From a virus (lineage: Duplodnaviria; Heunggongvirae; Uroviricota; Caudoviricetes), in IMG/VR virus record IMGVR_UViG_2585427754_000004: DNA of 64,000 nucleotides. One strand, given 5' to 3'. The position numbers and the translations under genes are program-made. Positions within the stretch are counted from its first letter, which is position 1. Each line of letters begins with the position of its first letter. Below, in pieces: positions 24,773-27,122 of this stretch. The notes below the pieces were generated by a model. That model did not search any database and was not told the DNA's origin. It saw only the letters and a program-made list of their open reading frames with translations.

Positions 24773-25042
24773 GAATTATGGCGCTTGTTGAGGAAGTCAC
24801 TCCTCTTACGCACTTTGTTTTGCCATGCCGGCAGTTAGCTTCTGCCTTTGACTATTCATGCGGCAACCCCGCATTTCGCCACAATGGGCAATTCACTTTT
24901 ATGGAATAAACTGGCCGTTGTGTCGATTTAATTAGCATGGCCTTACCATGCTAATTTATTCAACTTGTACAATCCTGCAAATCTATCCACTCAGGCTTAC
25001 ACCGTCTTCGTTATTGTAGAAATGAGGATCATCAGCGTTGAA

Positions 25043-25258
25043 TCAGCTTAGAGCAACGACATTTGCTGCTGCTGGGCCTTTAGCCCCATTCTCGATAGAG
25101 AATTCGACCTGCTGGCCTTCTTCCAAAGTGCGGAAATTATTACTCTGAATTGCCGAAAAATGTACAAAAACATCTTTACTGCCATCAGCAGGAGAAATAA
25201 AGCCAAAGCCTTTATCAGAGTTAAACCATTTTACTAAACCAGTCATTTTATTAGACAT
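25043..25258 (-). CDS. Cold-shock protein (CspA family)
   Basis: [23 protein letters not shown] ... VFVHFSAIQ is near-canonical for a cold-shock domain with RNP1/RNP2 motifs. ATG at 25258 with SD; ORF track start at 25354 is probably too far upstream. Confidence 0.85.
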
Positions 25259-25587
25259 AGATATTACCTTCTTAATTTTGTGAGCCACATAGTGCGGCGA
25301 GAATTTGATCTGTATAGATTGGGACTTACTTAGGCACTTAAGGAGGAGACTCACGAAGAAGGGAAATCAGAAGATAACACTGAACTGAGACTGCTTTACT
25401 AAAACTGCTTACATAAGGTCTGTCTTGCAAACCAACGATGCTATTAACGCATACCCCTTCTTTTCATGCAACCTTTATTTTTCAAAGATAACTAATTTTT
25501 GTCACCATTGGTTTAGTAAACGTTAACGAACCAGACGATGCCAGACACCTTTACAGAGAACAGATGCCCGCCAATTGGCGGGCATCA

Positions 25588-26151
25588 TTATGCGCATTTC
25601 GCAATATCTTTGCGGCGTTTAATCAGTTTCTCCGCAATTTGCTCTATTTCGTTGAAATCTTTCGAGACGCTGTTTCGAAGCGCCAGATTCCATTTACTCA
25701 AAGTTCGGGCATTTTGGACAATTTGATCGCCCTCTTTAAGTCGTCCGTTATTCATGAGCCATTCAGCCACATCAGCCCAATCCCAGAGAGGAGACTGGCC
25801 TTTTATGCGTTGTACAGGGCAAGGGAAGTCGCCGCTTCCGCGCTTACCGTCTTTGAGCAACGCCACTGCCTGGCGAGACAGGTCTGTCAGTTCCGCGATA
25901 TCGCTTAAGCCCACAAGAGCCGAGTCGACGGATTCAACAATTGCACCGATACCGGCTGATTCAATATTGTCGACCGCAGATGCGATAGCTGCATCAAGTG
26001 ATTGTGCTTCGCGGTCAAATTCTACATAGACGGAGTTTCCATATGCGCAAATTAGCGCATCGTCACAGCCGTTTTGGTACAGCGCGTCTTCCAGTCCTTC
26101 CGTCTCATACGATACGCCTGAGAGCGTCAGAGTGAAGTTATAAAGCGCCAT
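25588..26151 (-). CDS. HTH-containing protein, candidate antitoxin or regulator
   Basis: Helix-turn-helix LSDIAELTDLSRQAVALL in the middle; start MALYNF with AAGGA ribosome-binding site; 60 bp downstream of a small ORF on the same strand. Confidence 0.4.
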   Translation of the reverse strand: MALYNFTLTLSGVSYETEGLEDALYQNGCDDALICAYGNSVYVEFDREAQSLDAAIASAVDNIESAGIGAIVESVDSALVGLSDIAELTDLSRQAVALLKDGKRGSGDFPCPVQRIKGQSPLWDWADVAEWLMNNGRLKEGDQIVQNARTLSKWNLALRNSVSKDFNEIEQIAEKLIKRRKDIAKCA

Positions 26152-26211
26152 AGTTTTCCTTTGAAGATAGTTGGACAGTTTCTGCAAAAGGCGGCTAATG
26201 CCGCCTTGAAA

Positions 26212-26436
26212 TCATTTACAACGATCAACCATTCGTTTGATCTGTTTGGCATGGTTTTCGGGATTACCCGGAGTCGACCATACGCTCATTTGGTGAGTTT
26301 TGTGTTCACCTTCTGGATTACCGCATCGCAGTCTGCAAAAACAATGTGCAGCACCACCAGCTGCTACCCAGATCCAGCCTTTACTTAATGCATAGTCAAT
26401 GGCTGCTTGAATATGCTTATTCGGATGTTGCTTCAT
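26212..26436 (-). CDS. Small protein, weak HicA-like toxin candidate
   Basis: 74 aa; LSKGW ... GGAAHCF loosely resembles the HicA fold; GGAGG ribosome-binding site; palindromic operator upstream. Confidence 0.3.
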   Translation of the reverse strand: MKQHPNKHIQAAIDYALSKGWIWVAAGGAAHCFCRLRCGNPEGEHKTHQMSVWSTPGNPENHAKQIKRMVDRCK

Positions 26437-26467
26437 TCGCCTCCGATAATAGTATTCTATTCACAGT

Positions 26468-26483
26468 GTTGACATCTGTCAAC
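26468..26483. promoter_or_regulatory. Palindrome GTTGACA-tc-TGTCAAC overlapping a -35-like hexamer for the small minus-strand gene
   Basis: Perfect 7-bp arms containing TTGACA; TATTAT-like hexamer about 17 bp downstream on the minus strand. Confidence 0.4.
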
Positions 26484-26690
26484 GGCGACTGAATTTCATC
26501 CGTTCATGCCACACCCCCATCCATCTCATGTATGTGACCTAAAGATGGTCAGCACAGCTTACCAAAATAAGACAACTAATTATCTTCGGTGATCTCAATA
26601 TTTTCCCCTGAACAAAGTTGACATGACGCCATAAACCCGTTCTCTGTTTGATATAATTGATACAGATTTTATAAGTAGGAACCTATTAGA

Positions 26691-27122
26691 GTGAACACTG
26701 ATATTTTTTCTAAAATCATGGCCGATCTGGAGTTCGACCGCGACAACCTTGAGGAAGTATGGCGTAAACAGCCACGGCTTTTAATGGAGTATGGGTCAAA
26801 ACTAGCGCAGGCAGATCGAGATGTCGCAGAGGCAAAACTTAACCTTGAAGCTGTTGAAGCAAAGCTATACGACACAGAGCGTAAGAACTTGAGTATGAAC
26901 GGCATTAAGTTCAACGAGTCTGTACTGGACGCTAAGGTTAAAACAAACCCACAGTATCTGTCTAAACGGCAGAAGTTGGATGAAGCACGGCACATCGCAG
27001 ACATATACAAACATGCTGTCGCCGCCTTTTCGCATCGCCGAGACATGATCGTTCAGGCGTCAAAGATGGCCATCGTTGAATTAGAGCGATTAGGCTCTGA
27101 ACGCTTTATTACTCCCCGTTGA
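26691..27122 (+). CDS. Hypothetical protein, possible UvsY-like recombination mediator
   Basis: 143 aa, predicted helical; position next to the SSB gene and loose similarity to T4 UvsY. GTG start. Confidence 0.3.
   Translation: MNTDIFSKIMADLEFDRDNLEEVWRKQPRLLMEYGSKLAQADRDVAEAKLNLEAVEAKLYDTERKNLSMNGIKFNESVLDAKVKTNPQYLSKRQKLDEARHIADIYKHAVAAFSHRRDMIVQASKMAIVELERLGSERFITPR

What the first reader, a model, noticed from the sequence alone, without database searches (positions are those of the whole stretch)
25588..26483. Second small-toxin-like/HTH gene pair with a palindromic promoter
A 74-aa protein with loose HicA-like features is followed 60 bp downstream by an HTH protein on the same strand. 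The promoter region contains the perfect palindrome GTTGACA-tc-TGTCAAC overlapping a -35-like hexamer. The layout suggests an autoregulated two-gene module, possibly a second toxin-antitoxin system.
Basis: inference. Interest (0 to 1): 0.4.

Follow-up and report, generated by a model that had tools for sequence, protein, structure and literature searches.

The report
Self-regulated two-gene cassette, untested toxin-antitoxin candidate
This is a real, expressed two-gene operon on an SSU5-type phage-plasmid, made of a small basic His/Cys-rich protein and a DNA-binding partner with a strongly conserved palindromic operator; it belongs to the widespread but untested defence-candidate family PDC-M06, behaves like a mobile toxin-antitoxin-type module, and is not demonstrably HicA/HicB.

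Summary
**Observation: confirmed.** On the minus strand, a near-consensus sigma-70 promoter is overlapped by the perfect palindrome GTTGACAtcTGTCAAC. It drives a 74-aa gene (A). A 60-nt spacer with a GC hairpin follows, then a 187-aa gene (B) and a strong terminator.

**Source.** The window is an SSU5-type phage-plasmid, 99.7% identical to E. coli LF82 phage-plasmid Cyrano. There the genes are annotated HicA/HicB. Published RNA-seq shows them expressed in lysogeny and about 60-fold induced in macrophages.

**HicAB is not supported.**
- Neither protein hits Pfam or NCBIfam.
- Profile-profile comparison with HicA is insignificant.
- No HicA or HicB structure is recovered.
- B's N-domain is ferredoxin-like, not HicB-like.

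**What they do match.** Both proteins match PADLOC's untested phage-defence candidate PDC-M06A/B.

**Comparative evidence (81 loci).**
- B always follows A.
- 74 loci carry a 6-N4-6 palindrome over the -35 box. The arms are conserved or change symmetrically, the spacer varies freely, and the arm variant tracks B's recognition helix.

**Reading.**
- Well supported: B is the autorepressor of a mobile two-gene cassette.
- Inferred, untested: A (basic) is an effector neutralised by B's acidic N-domain, as in a toxin-antitoxin or abortive-infection module.

The parts
26468..26483 (.).
   Evidence: The same arms with a free N4 spacer occur in 60 of 81 loci. Symmetric arm variants occur in distant clades and track B's recognition helix.
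26454..26482 (-). Sigma-70-type promoter: -35 TTGACA (26482..26477), 17-nt spacer, -10 TAGAAT (26459..26454)
   Evidence: 11 of 12 consensus positions. Transcription of both genes in the 99.7%-identical Cyrano element is shown by RNA-seq.
26440..26444 (-). Shine-Dalgarno GGAGG of gene A
   Evidence: Read directly from the sequence.
26212..26436 (-). Gene A: 74-aa basic (pI 9.5) His/Cys-rich protein; PADLOC PDC-M06A, PHROG 5923; predicted alpha-beta-beta-(short helix)-beta-alpha fold
26188..26207 (-). Intercistronic stem-loop AAGGCGGC-ATTA-GCCGCCTT followed by TTGC (dG -14.2 kcal/mol); terminator-like attenuator or RNA-stability element
   Evidence: A hairpin with dG <= -8 is present in 33 of 37 loci whose A-B gap is >= 40 nt, with differing stem sequences. 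A mRNA is 2-5 times B mRNA in Cyrano RNA-seq.
26156..26161 (-). Shine-Dalgarno-like AAGGAA of gene B
   Evidence: Read directly from the sequence.
25588..26151 (-). Gene B: 187-aa acidic (pI 4.5) DNA-binding protein; PADLOC PDC-M06B, PHROG 2620
25924..26151 (-). B residues 1-76: very acidic (pI 4.05) ferredoxin-like beta-alpha-beta-beta-alpha-beta domain, the proposed A-binding/neutralising domain
   Evidence: This is the only part of B retained next to A in two Cardiobacteriaceae loci.
25732..25923 (-). B residues 77-140: AlpA/excisionase/MerR-type winged helix-turn-helix; recognition helix SRQAVALLK
25591..25731 (-). B residues 141-187: basic two-helix hairpin, absent from the ~150-aa B proteins of Pasteurellaceae, Neisseria and Moraxellaceae
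25563..25586 (-). Operon terminator: perfect 12+12 palindrome GATGCCCGCCAA/TTGGCGGGCATC, starting 1 nt after the stop codon of B

Best explanation
The locus is an autonomous, negatively autoregulated two-gene cassette of the PDC-M06 type, carried as a lysogeny-expressed 'moron' by an SSU5-type phage-plasmid.

**Proposed mechanism**
1. A near-consensus sigma-70 promoter transcribes A, then B.
2. B dimerises and its AlpA/Xis-type winged HTH binds the 6-N4-6 palindrome GTTGAC-N4-GTCAAC. That palindrome covers the -35 box, so B binding shuts off the operon. This step has strong comparative support but no biochemistry.
3. A stem-loop between the genes keeps A mRNA 2-5 times more abundant than B mRNA. 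The ratio is observed; the role of the hairpin is inferred.
4. A is a small basic protein. Invariant H4, K7, H31, T55/P56 and H62 appear to cluster at one end of an alpha-beta-beta-beta-alpha fold. C38, C/H48 and C73 form a likely metal or disulfide staple at the other end.
5. A is the effector, and B's very acidic ferredoxin-like N-domain sequesters it (inferred).
6. When B is lost or titrated (stress, plasmid loss or phage attack), the operon is derepressed and free A acts on a nucleic-acid target. The result is addiction or abortive-infection behaviour (speculative).

Functionally this resembles toxin-first type II toxin-antitoxin operons such as hicAB, higBA and mqsRA. Both proteins nevertheless belong to families of their own and are not HicA/HicB.
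For: **Real operon with good signals**
-.

**Family assignment**
- A matches PDC-M06A (E 1.2e-19) and B matches PDC-M06B (E 1.3e-32).
- PDC systems are 145 untested candidates found embedded in BREX, DISARM, type I RM or Hma systems. This cassette was counted 497 times in the PDC assignment table (Table S8).
- The A family is large: 712 cluster representatives at E <= 1e-3.

**Linkage and mobility**
- B lies immediately downstream of A in 81 of 81 loci from different species.
- Contexts are varied: phage-plasmids including SSU5 itself, a P2-like prophage next to Phd/YoeB, an integrase island, and two-gene inserts among housekeeping genes.

**Operator**
- 66 of 81 loci carry a perfect palindrome and 74 of 81 one with <=1 mismatch, 38-75 nt upstream of A, with a free N4 spacer.
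- Arm variants pair with recognition-helix variants: GTTGAC with RQA(I/V)A(L/M)LK, GTTTAC with RAA(L/I)S(N/Q)YA, GTAGAC with KKTISAY, GTGGAC with KQTLNNY.
- The two loci whose B lacks the HTH also lack the operator.
- The operator is unique in the 64-kb window, so B has no other obvious target here.

**Expression in Cyrano (99.7% identical)**
- A is 30-fold and B 14-fold above prophage background in LB.
- log2 fpkm rises from about 8 (A) and 7 (B) in LB to about 14 (A) and 13 (B) in macrophages at 6 h, while flanking genes stay at 3-5.5.
- This is the behaviour of a regulated, derepressible promoter.

**Charge complementarity**
- A has pI 9.5 (family median 9.45); B's N-domain has pI 4.05.
Against: - No toxicity, neutralisation, DNA-binding or anti-phage experiment exists for any member of the family.
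- Neither protein has a recognisable enzymatic domain.
- A mRNA exceeds B mRNA in all five conditions, and many loci have a hairpin between the genes. A putative toxin made in excess of its antitoxin is awkward for classical type II stoichiometry.
- In my sample of 75 genomes the nearest neighbours are mostly housekeeping genes, not defence genes.
- The correlation between operator and recognition helix is confounded by phylogeny.
- The spatial clustering of A's conserved residues was deduced from the secondary-structure order, not measured on coordinates.
Confidence: 0.5

Rival explanations
1. A bona fide HicA/HicB toxin-antitoxin system, as annotated in phage Cyrano. A would be a HicA mRNA interferase and B a HicB antitoxin.
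For: - Cyrano annotates the genes as HicA/HicB.
- The gene order is toxin-first with the DNA-binding protein second, as in hicAB.
- The A model has the alpha-beta-beta-beta-alpha order of HicA, with an invariant His (H31) just before strand 2, where HicA has its conserved His (H23 in the E. coli HicA numbering of alignment A4).
- Foldseek against BFVD lists two predicted phage proteins named HicA-like (E 0.027 with TM 0.54/0.61; E 0.26).
Against: - No Pfam HicA_toxin or NCBIfam hit for A at E <= 1, nor for any of 75 diverse relatives at E <= 0.1.
- The A-family profile finds no HicA chain in the PDB at E <= 10.
- hhalign against an E. coli-type HicA profile aligns only 16-19 columns, and out of register (A's N-terminus against HicA helix 2).
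- hhalign against a broader HicA profile that includes four PDB HicAs gives 7.6% probability.
- Foldseek against the PDB returns no HicA among its top 50 and nothing at E <= 0.001.
- B's N-domain is beta-alpha-beta-beta-alpha-beta (ferredoxin-like), not the beta-beta-beta-alpha-beta partial RNase H fold of HicB (the latter from established knowledge). Its DNA-binding domain is AlpA/Xis-like, not RHH or Xre.
- The Cyrano names were transferred by BLASTP/Pfam annotation and were not tested.

Confidence: 0.1
2. A non-toxic regulatory pair. B would be a transcription factor and A a small metal- or redox-binding co-factor or modulator, such as a co-repressor, anti-repressor or stress sensor. The module would serve some host-adaptation function rather than addiction or defence.
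For: - A carries conserved Cys and His residues suggestive of metal binding.
- A is made in excess of B, which is easier to reconcile with a harmless modulator than with a toxin.
- The operon is induced about 60-fold inside macrophages, an oxidative and metal-limited niche.
- Many chromosomal copies sit stably among housekeeping genes.
- Neither protein has an enzymatic domain.
Against: - The only detectable operator is the cassette's own promoter, so there is no evident regulon.
- The cassette is patchily distributed and mobile, like selfish or defence modules.
- It is recurrently embedded inside BREX, DISARM or RM systems according to Payne et al..
- Two loci keep A together with only the N-domain of B, with no DNA-binding part. 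This suggests the A-B(N) contact matters more than regulation.
Confidence: 0.3
3. A phage life-cycle regulator: an excisionase or AlpA-like control protein of the SSU5-type phage-plasmid, as PHROG and the SSU5 annotations suggest.
For: - PHROG 2620 is labelled 'excisionase and transcriptional regulator'.
- SSU5_054 is annotated AlpA-like.
- There is weak similarity to an AlpA structure (8c3t, E 0.71).
- The cassette keeps the same position in SSU5 and Cyrano.
Against: - Only SSU5-type phages among 50,697 phage records carry full-length B. Hundreds of bacterial chromosomes carry the pair with no phage or integrase nearby.
- Cyrano's master repressor is assigned to another gene (CYRAN_45), and the pair is classed as a moron.
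- The flanking replication and recombination genes are not co-induced with it.
- There is no second operator in the 64-kb window.
Confidence: 0.05

Closest known systems
PADLOC phage-defence candidate PDC-M06 (Payne et al., bioRxiv 10.1101/2024.01.29.577857)
   Same: Both proteins match the PDC-M06A and PDC-M06B models (E 1.2e-19 and 1.3e-32) in the same A-then-B order.
   Different: PDC-M06 is a catalogue entry obtained by guilt-by-embedding, not a characterised system. It has no tested activity and no described mechanism. This copy sits on a phage-plasmid, not inside a BREX, DISARM or RM locus.
HicAB type II toxin-antitoxin system
   Same: - Toxin-sized basic first gene, followed by an acidic two-domain DNA-binding second gene.
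- An operator in the promoter.
- The alpha-beta-beta-beta-alpha order of secondary-structure elements, with an invariant His before strand 2.
   Different: - No sequence, profile or significant fold match to HicA.
- A carries an extra Cys/His staple and an N-terminal HPNK motif.
- B has a ferredoxin-like N-domain and an AlpA/Xis-type winged HTH, instead of the HicB fold with an RHH or Xre domain.
Other toxin-first type II TA operons (higBA, mqsRA)
   Same: - Gene order.
- Autoregulation through a palindrome that overlaps the promoter.
- Mobility between plasmids, prophages and chromosomes.
- Transcriptional induction under stress.
   Different: - The protein families are unrelated.
- No internal promoter for the second gene was detected.
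- A hairpin lies between the genes and favours the first gene.
AlpA / excisionase (Xis) / MerR-type winged-HTH regulators
   Same: B residues ~79-141 match PHROG excisionase/regulator families (E 2e-4 and 1e-3) and weakly match AlpA 8c3t. Databases name homologues 'AlpA family transcriptional regulator'.
   Different: B has an added N-terminal ferredoxin-like domain and a C-terminal helical hairpin. It is strictly paired with protein A, is not next to an integrase, and does not reach any Pfam HTH threshold.

Membership tests
HicA toxin (Pfam HicA_toxin PF07927) | Significant match to the family profile | tested here: not met
   - No Pfam or NCBIfam hit at E <= 1.
- None of 75 diverse relatives hits PF07927 at E <= 0.1.
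- Genuine HicAs carry PF07927 in the same database.
- hhalign gives a 76% / 34% local match over 16-19 columns that is out of register, and 7.6% against a broader HicA profile.
HicA toxin | dsRBD-like alpha-beta-beta-beta-alpha fold superposable on solved HicA structures | tested here: inconclusive
   - The model (pLDDT 86.5) has the right order of elements.
- Foldseek against the PDB finds no HicA, and its best hit has E 0.87.
- BFVD gives 'HicA-like' predicted proteins at E 0.027 and 0.26, TM about 0.5-0.6.
HicA toxin | Catalytic His at the start of strand 2; ribosome-independent mRNA cleavage | not testable with these tools
   H31 is invariant and lies just before strand 2. Its equivalence to the HicA His, and any RNase activity, need structure superposition and biochemistry.
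HicB antitoxin | N-terminal HicB fold (beta-beta-beta-alpha-beta, partial RNase H-like) and a match to HicB profiles | tested here: not met
   - B's N-domain is beta-alpha-beta-beta-alpha-beta.
- Foldseek returns only generic ferredoxin-like folds (S6, PII, ACT, acylphosphatase) at E >= 0.016 and no HicB.
- No Pfam or NCBIfam hit.
HicB antitoxin | C-terminal RHH or Xre-type DNA-binding domain | tested here: not met
   The DNA-binding part is an AlpA/excisionase/MerR-type winged HTH in the middle of the protein.
PADLOC PDC-M06 candidate | Protein A matches a PDC-M06A model | tested here: met
   Six PDC-M06A models are hit; the best has E 1.2e-19 over residues 2-74.
PADLOC PDC-M06 candidate | Protein B matches the PDC-M06B model and is adjacent to A on the same strand | tested here: met
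   E 1.3e-32 over residues 3-161. The genes are adjacent with a 60-nt gap. The same arrangement holds in 81 of 81 loci.
PADLOC PDC-M06 candidate | Anti-phage activity | not testable with these tools
   The source paper states that the 145 PDC systems are untested. No paper in the library mentions PDC-M06.
Type II toxin-antitoxin systems (generic) | Small bicistronic operon that is mobile and patchily distributed | tested here: met
Type II toxin-antitoxin systems (generic) | Autoregulation by the DNA-binding partner at a palindromic operator in the promoter | tested here: inconclusive
   - Strong comparative support: a conserved 6-N4-6 palindrome in 74 of 81 loci, whose variants track the recognition helix.
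- The operator is lost where the HTH is lost.
- The operon is inducible in vivo.
- No binding experiment exists.
Type II toxin-antitoxin systems (generic) | Toxicity of one protein, neutralised by direct binding of the other | not testable with these tools
   Only circumstantial evidence: charge complementarity (pI 9.5 against 4.05), and retention of B's N-domain alone beside A in two loci.

The most novel reading that the evidence does not exclude
PDC-M06 is a new toxin-antitoxin/abortive-infection family with two unusual features. Its effector would be a previously unrecognised Zn- or disulfide-stapled mini-fold, convergent with or only very distantly related to HicA. Its neutraliser would use a ferredoxin-like acidic domain fused to an Xis/AlpA-type HTH.

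The intercistronic hairpin would deliberately keep the effector in excess, so control would rest on something other than simple stoichiometric sequestration. Examples are catalytic inactivation, or an A-dependent change in B's operator binding.

Carried by SSU5-type phage-plasmids of E. coli, Shigella, S. Typhi and Y. pestis, and switched on about 60-fold inside macrophages, it could contribute to plasmid-prophage maintenance, superinfection exclusion or intracellular persistence.
Probability: 0.2. Interest if true: 0.65.

Novelty: new variant of a known kind. Interest (0 to 1): 0.45.

Why it matters
**Scale of the gap.** The cassette is widespread: 712 clusters at 50% identity for protein A, across Gammaproteobacteria and beyond. 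It sits on SSU5-type phage-plasmids of clinically important Enterobacteriaceae. Yet it has no characterised homologue.

**Correction to existing labels.** It is currently named HicAB in one phage record. The PHROG family and the RefSeq SSU5 record label B 'excisionase and transcriptional regulator'. One homologue of A is even annotated as a RuBisCO small subunit. Removing these labels keeps a wrong name from spreading.

**What the analysis makes testable.**
- A precise operator, GTTGAC-N4-GTCAAC, with natural specificity variants paired to recognition-helix variants. This is a ready-made system for studying the DNA recognition code of Xis/AlpA-type winged HTH proteins.
- A short list of candidate catalytic residues (H4, K7, H31, H62) and staple residues (C38, H48, C73) in A.
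- A proposed neutralising domain, B residues 1-76.

**If confirmed.** If A proves toxic or the pair proves protective, this would add a new toxin-antitoxin/defence family. It would also explain a macrophage-induced moron of an adherent-invasive E. coli.

Tried and rejected
1. **HicA/HicB membership: rejected.** Pfam, NCBIfam, a PDB sequence search with single sequences and with profiles, hhalign against two HicA alignments, and Foldseek against PDB and BFVD all failed to show significant similarity.
2. **RuBisCO small-subunit similarity of A: treated as spurious.** Pfam gives E 0.2; 9 of 75 relatives match, the best at E 0.0023, all far below the gathering score of 27 bits.
3. **Lysogeny or excision regulator: rejected**, on distribution and on the Cyrano repressor assignment.
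4. **Defence-island context: no clear enrichment.** Nearest neighbours in 75 genomes are mainly GNAT, ABC-transporter, epimerase and LysR genes. I take the PADLOC hits among them (mad3/mad8, ATPase models) to reflect the 11 ABC ATPases, on matching counts only.
5. **Canonical intrinsic terminator between A and B: only partly supported.** 33 of 37 long-gap loci have a hairpin, but only 8 have a T-rich tail. Its role is left open.
6. **Internal promoter for B: none detected** by the consensus scan.
7. **Rfam: nothing in the operon**.
8. **Technical failure.** The search for related loci with the very diverse alignment A3 found no conserved stretch. It was repeated successfully with A1.
9. **Synteny shortcut abandoned.** I considered using plasmid CP099286.1 to place other TA genes in the window. 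The window start is not collinear with that plasmid, so no claim is made.
Full report
**What is in the sequence**

The features lie on the minus strand.
- Gene A runs 26436..26212 (74 aa, ATG start), with GGAGG three bases upstream of the start codon.
- A 60-nt spacer follows.
- Gene B runs 26151..25588 (187 aa). Its ATG is the start shared by all homologues (MALYNF...).
- One base after the stop codon of B lies a perfect 12+12 palindrome, GATGCCCGCCAA/TTGGCGGGCATC (25563..25586), which scores as a terminator.
- Upstream of A the consensus scan finds TTGACA-17 nt-TAGAAT, matching 11 of 12 positions. The palindrome GTTGACATCTGTCAAC (26468..26483) covers the -35 hexamer and the start of the spacer.
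- The A-B spacer contains the stem-loop AAGGCGGC-ATTA-GCCGCCTT followed by TTGC (26207..26188, dG -14.2 kcal/mol).

Within this window alone the palindrome is unique but only weakly beyond chance: 0.14 matches are expected with <=1 mismatch.

**Where the window comes from**

The region is 99.7% identical to Escherichia phage Cyrano (OV696614). Cyrano is the SSU5-type phage-plasmid pLF82 of adherent-invasive E. coli LF82. The region is also 100% identical to many ~110-kb non-mobilizable E. coli plasmids.

The cassette lies between dnaE plus a csp gene and a recombination module: a UvsY-like gene, a gp32-like SSB, an exonuclease and a RecA-like gene. Cyrano annotates the pair as 'HicA toxin protein' and 'putative antitoxin HicB'. 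NCBI's pipeline calls them 'hypothetical protein' and 'DNA-binding protein'.

SSU5 itself carries the pair in the same place: SSU5_055 and SSU5_054, the latter 'AlpA-like' and 67.7% identical to B. Its operator is GTTGAC-TCAA-GTTAAC and its spacer hairpin is AAGGCGGGCAACCGCCTTTTT.

**Family assignment**

- Neither protein hits Pfam or NCBIfam at E <= 1.
- PHROGs place A in family 5923 (unknown function). B falls in family 2620 ('excisionase and transcriptional regulator'), with weaker hits of residues ~71-150 to other excisionase/HTH families.
- The informative hit is PADLOC-DB: A matches PDC-M06A (E 1.2e-19) and B matches PDC-M06B (E 1.3e-32).
- PDC systems are 145 'phage defence candidates' proposed because they are embedded within BREX, DISARM, type I RM or Hma loci. 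The authors state they are untested. This cassette (CAS_00046) carries the count 497 in the PDC assignment table (Table S8).
- No paper in the library mentions PDC-M06.
- An exhaustive profile search shows the A family is large: 712 cluster representatives at E <= 1e-3 and 267 at 1e-10.

**Is it HicAB?**

Tests on A:
- None of 75 diverse A relatives hits Pfam HicA_toxin, whereas genuine HicAs carry it.
- The A-family profile finds no HicA chain in the PDB at E <= 10.
- hhalign against an E. coli-type HicA profile gives only a 16-19-column match that is out of register. It aligns A's N-terminal HPNKxI with HicA's RHPxxEI at helix 2.
- Against a broader profile that includes four solved HicAs the probability is 7.6%.
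- The AlphaFold model of A (pLDDT 86.5) has the element order helix, strand, strand, short helix, strand, helix, which is the HicA/dsRBD order.
- Foldseek against the PDB returns no HicA and nothing better than E 0.87.
- Against BFVD the best hits have E 0.011-0.027. They include one predicted 'HicA-like' phage protein (TM 0.54/0.61) and another at E 0.26.

Tests on B:
- The model (pLDDT 90) has a beta-alpha-beta-beta-alpha-beta ferredoxin-like domain (residues 1-75), a winged HTH (82-134) and two long helices (143-186).
- Foldseek finds only generic ferredoxin-like folds and no HicB.

Conclusion: A shares at most a topology with HicA, and B does not have the HicB architecture. The Cyrano names came from BLASTP/Pfam-based annotation transfer, not from experiment.

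**Comparative genomics of the cassette**

A scan of one genome per species recovered 383 relatives of A, and the best 80 loci were analysed.

*Linkage and context*
- In all 80 loci, plus the window, a B homologue lies immediately downstream on the same strand.
- Contexts differ widely. In Histophilus the pair sits in a P2-like prophage beside Phd/YoeB. In Pseudoalteromonas it sits in an integrase island. In Providencia it is a bare two-gene insert between housekeeping genes. In two Cardiobacteriaceae genomes it lies between murE and murF.
- Nearest neighbours overall are mostly housekeeping genes. I see mobility, but no clear defence-island enrichment in this sample.

*Operator*
- 60 of 81 loci have a perfect GTTGAC-N4-GTCAAC upstream of A's start codon. 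N4 differs from locus to locus.
- Six more loci have perfect symmetric variants: GTTTAC/GTAAAC, GTAGAC/GTCTAC and GTGGAC/GTCCAC.
- Eight more have one mismatch.
- Across these 74 loci the operator lies 38-75 nt upstream of A's start codon.
- The left arm keeps a 5-6 of 6 match to the -35 consensus in every variant. The right arm lies in the promoter spacer, so promoter function cannot explain its conservation.
- The arm variant tracks B's second HTH helix: GTTGAC with (S/T)RQA(I/V)A(L/M)LK, GTTTAC with RAA(L/I)S(N/Q)YA, GTAGAC with SKKTISAY, GTGGAC with NKQTLNNY.
- The two loci in which B is truncated to its N-domain have no operator.
- Y. pestis pMT1 has a degenerate right arm.
- The correlation is confounded by phylogeny. 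Taken together, though, these observations are what an autorepressor and its operator should look like.

*Spacer*
- 33 of 37 loci with a gap of >= 40 nt have a hairpin with dG <= -8 in the spacer. The stems differ in sequence (GGCGGC/GCCGCC, GGTGGC/GCCACC, and 13-15-bp stems in Enterobacter and Kluyvera). Only 8 have a T-rich tail.
- In Pasteurellaceae, Neisseria and Moraxellaceae the genes abut or overlap, and B lacks the C-terminal helices.

**Experimental evidence from the literature**

Misson et al. (PLoS Pathog 2023, PMC9928086) re-analysed LF82 RNA-seq.
- CYRAN_51 (A) is 30-fold and CYRAN_50 (B) 14-fold above the prophage background in LB. They are listed as morons, and the master repressor is assigned to another gene, CYRAN_45.
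- Their S1 Table gives log2(fpkm+5) values. For A: 8.4/7.9 in LB and 14.1/14.3 in THP-1 macrophages at 6 h. For B: 7.1/7.2 and 13.0/13.3.
- The flanking dnaE and uvsY-like genes stay at 3-5.5.
- So the operon is transcribed in lysogeny and is strongly inducible, by about 6 log2 units. A mRNA exceeds B mRNA 2-5-fold in all five conditions, which fits partial termination or processing at the spacer hairpin.

**Proposed mechanism**

*Shown:* an operon with good expression signals, transcribed and inducible in a near-identical element.

*Strongly inferred:* a B dimer binds the 6-N4-6 operator across the -35 box and represses its own operon.

*Inferred:*
- A is basic (pI 9.5, family median 9.45). 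B's N-domain is extremely acidic (pI 4.05 across the family). The N-domain is the one part of B that is never lost.
- I therefore propose that the N-domain binds and masks A.
- A's invariant or near-invariant residues (H4, P5, N6, K7, W21, H31, T55, P56, H62, plus C38, C/H48, C73) fall into two groups when mapped on the strand and helix order.
- The first group is a polar His/Lys cluster at the end of the sheet where HicA has its active-site His.
- The second group is a Cys/His staple at the other end.
- This mapping was reasoned from topology, not measured on coordinates.

*Speculative:* A is a nucleic-acid-directed effector released when B is degraded, diluted or titrated, giving plasmid addiction or abortive infection.

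*Main difficulty:* the putative toxin transcript is in excess of the antitoxin transcript, and no enzyme-like domain is detectable. A non-toxic 'regulator plus small metal-binding modulator' reading therefore remains a serious rival (0.3).

**Novelty and verdict**

As a sequence object the cassette is already catalogued: PDC-M06, PHROGs 5923 and 2620, and a listed moron of Cyrano. No member has been characterised, and the HicAB label is not supported.

Architecturally it is a toxin-first, autoregulated, type II TA-like cassette built from two protein families of their own. I rate it a new variant of a known kind.

Interest is moderate (0.45). The family is large and sits on clinically relevant phage-plasmids. 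The operator/recognition-helix pairs and the macrophage induction make it directly testable. The general design is familiar, however, and the function is still unproven.

Noticed in passing
window 25018-25436 (minus strand): Immediately downstream of the operon terminator lies a csp gene (PGAP calls it cspG in the identical plasmid region) with a full-length match to the Rfam cspA thermoregulator 5' UTR (185.7 bits, E 8e-51). The phage-plasmid therefore carries a cold-shock protein gene complete with its RNA thermosensor.
   Followed up: partly
window 26188-26207 (minus strand); spacers of L010-L089: A GC-rich stem-loop sits between genes A and B in 33 of 37 loci with a gap of >= 40 nt. The stem sequences differ between loci (some are 13-15 bp, dG down to -33 kcal/mol), and only 8 have a T-rich tail. 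Whether it is an attenuator, an RNA stabiliser or a processing site is unresolved.
   Followed up: partly
Cyrano CYRAN_50/51 (= window 25588-26436); PMC9928086 S1 Table: The operon is induced about 60-fold (6 log2 units) in E. coli LF82 inside THP-1 macrophages at 6 h compared with LB stationary phase, while the flanking phage genes stay at background. As far as my term searches of the paper showed, the authors do not comment on this.
   Followed up: partly
L067 3001-3488 and L088 (Cardiobacteriaceae MAGs): The cassette is inserted between murE and murF. B is truncated to its ~91-aa N-terminal domain with no HTH, and the upstream operator is absent. This natural variant keeps only A and the proposed neutralising domain.
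   Followed up: partly
L030 (Yersinia pestis NCTC5923, 108-kb contig, pMT1-like): The Y. pestis copy has a degenerate right operator arm (GTTGAC-ACGC-GCTCAC) and an A protein extended to 83 aa. This may mean altered regulation or decay of the cassette.
   Followed up: no
L042 (Providencia sp. Me31A): Gene A is cut short at 52 aa by a premature stop, while B (190 aa) and the operator are intact. This is the pattern expected if losing A is tolerated but losing B is not. It is a single case.
   Followed up: no
P0039 (Shewanella sp. homologue of A): One database names a homologue of A 'ribulose bisphosphate carboxylase small subunit'. This traces to sub-threshold Pfam RuBisCO_small matches (best E 0.0023 among 75 relatives, against a gathering score of 27 bits) and looks like an annotation error that could propagate.
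   Followed up: partly
window 26614-26660 (plus strand): The divergent uvsY-like gene (26691..27122) is preceded by an extended -10 element, TGATATAAT (26649-26657). Further upstream, at 26616-26622, is another GTTGACA, which equals one half-site of the operator and is too far from the -10 to serve as a -35 box.
   Followed up: no
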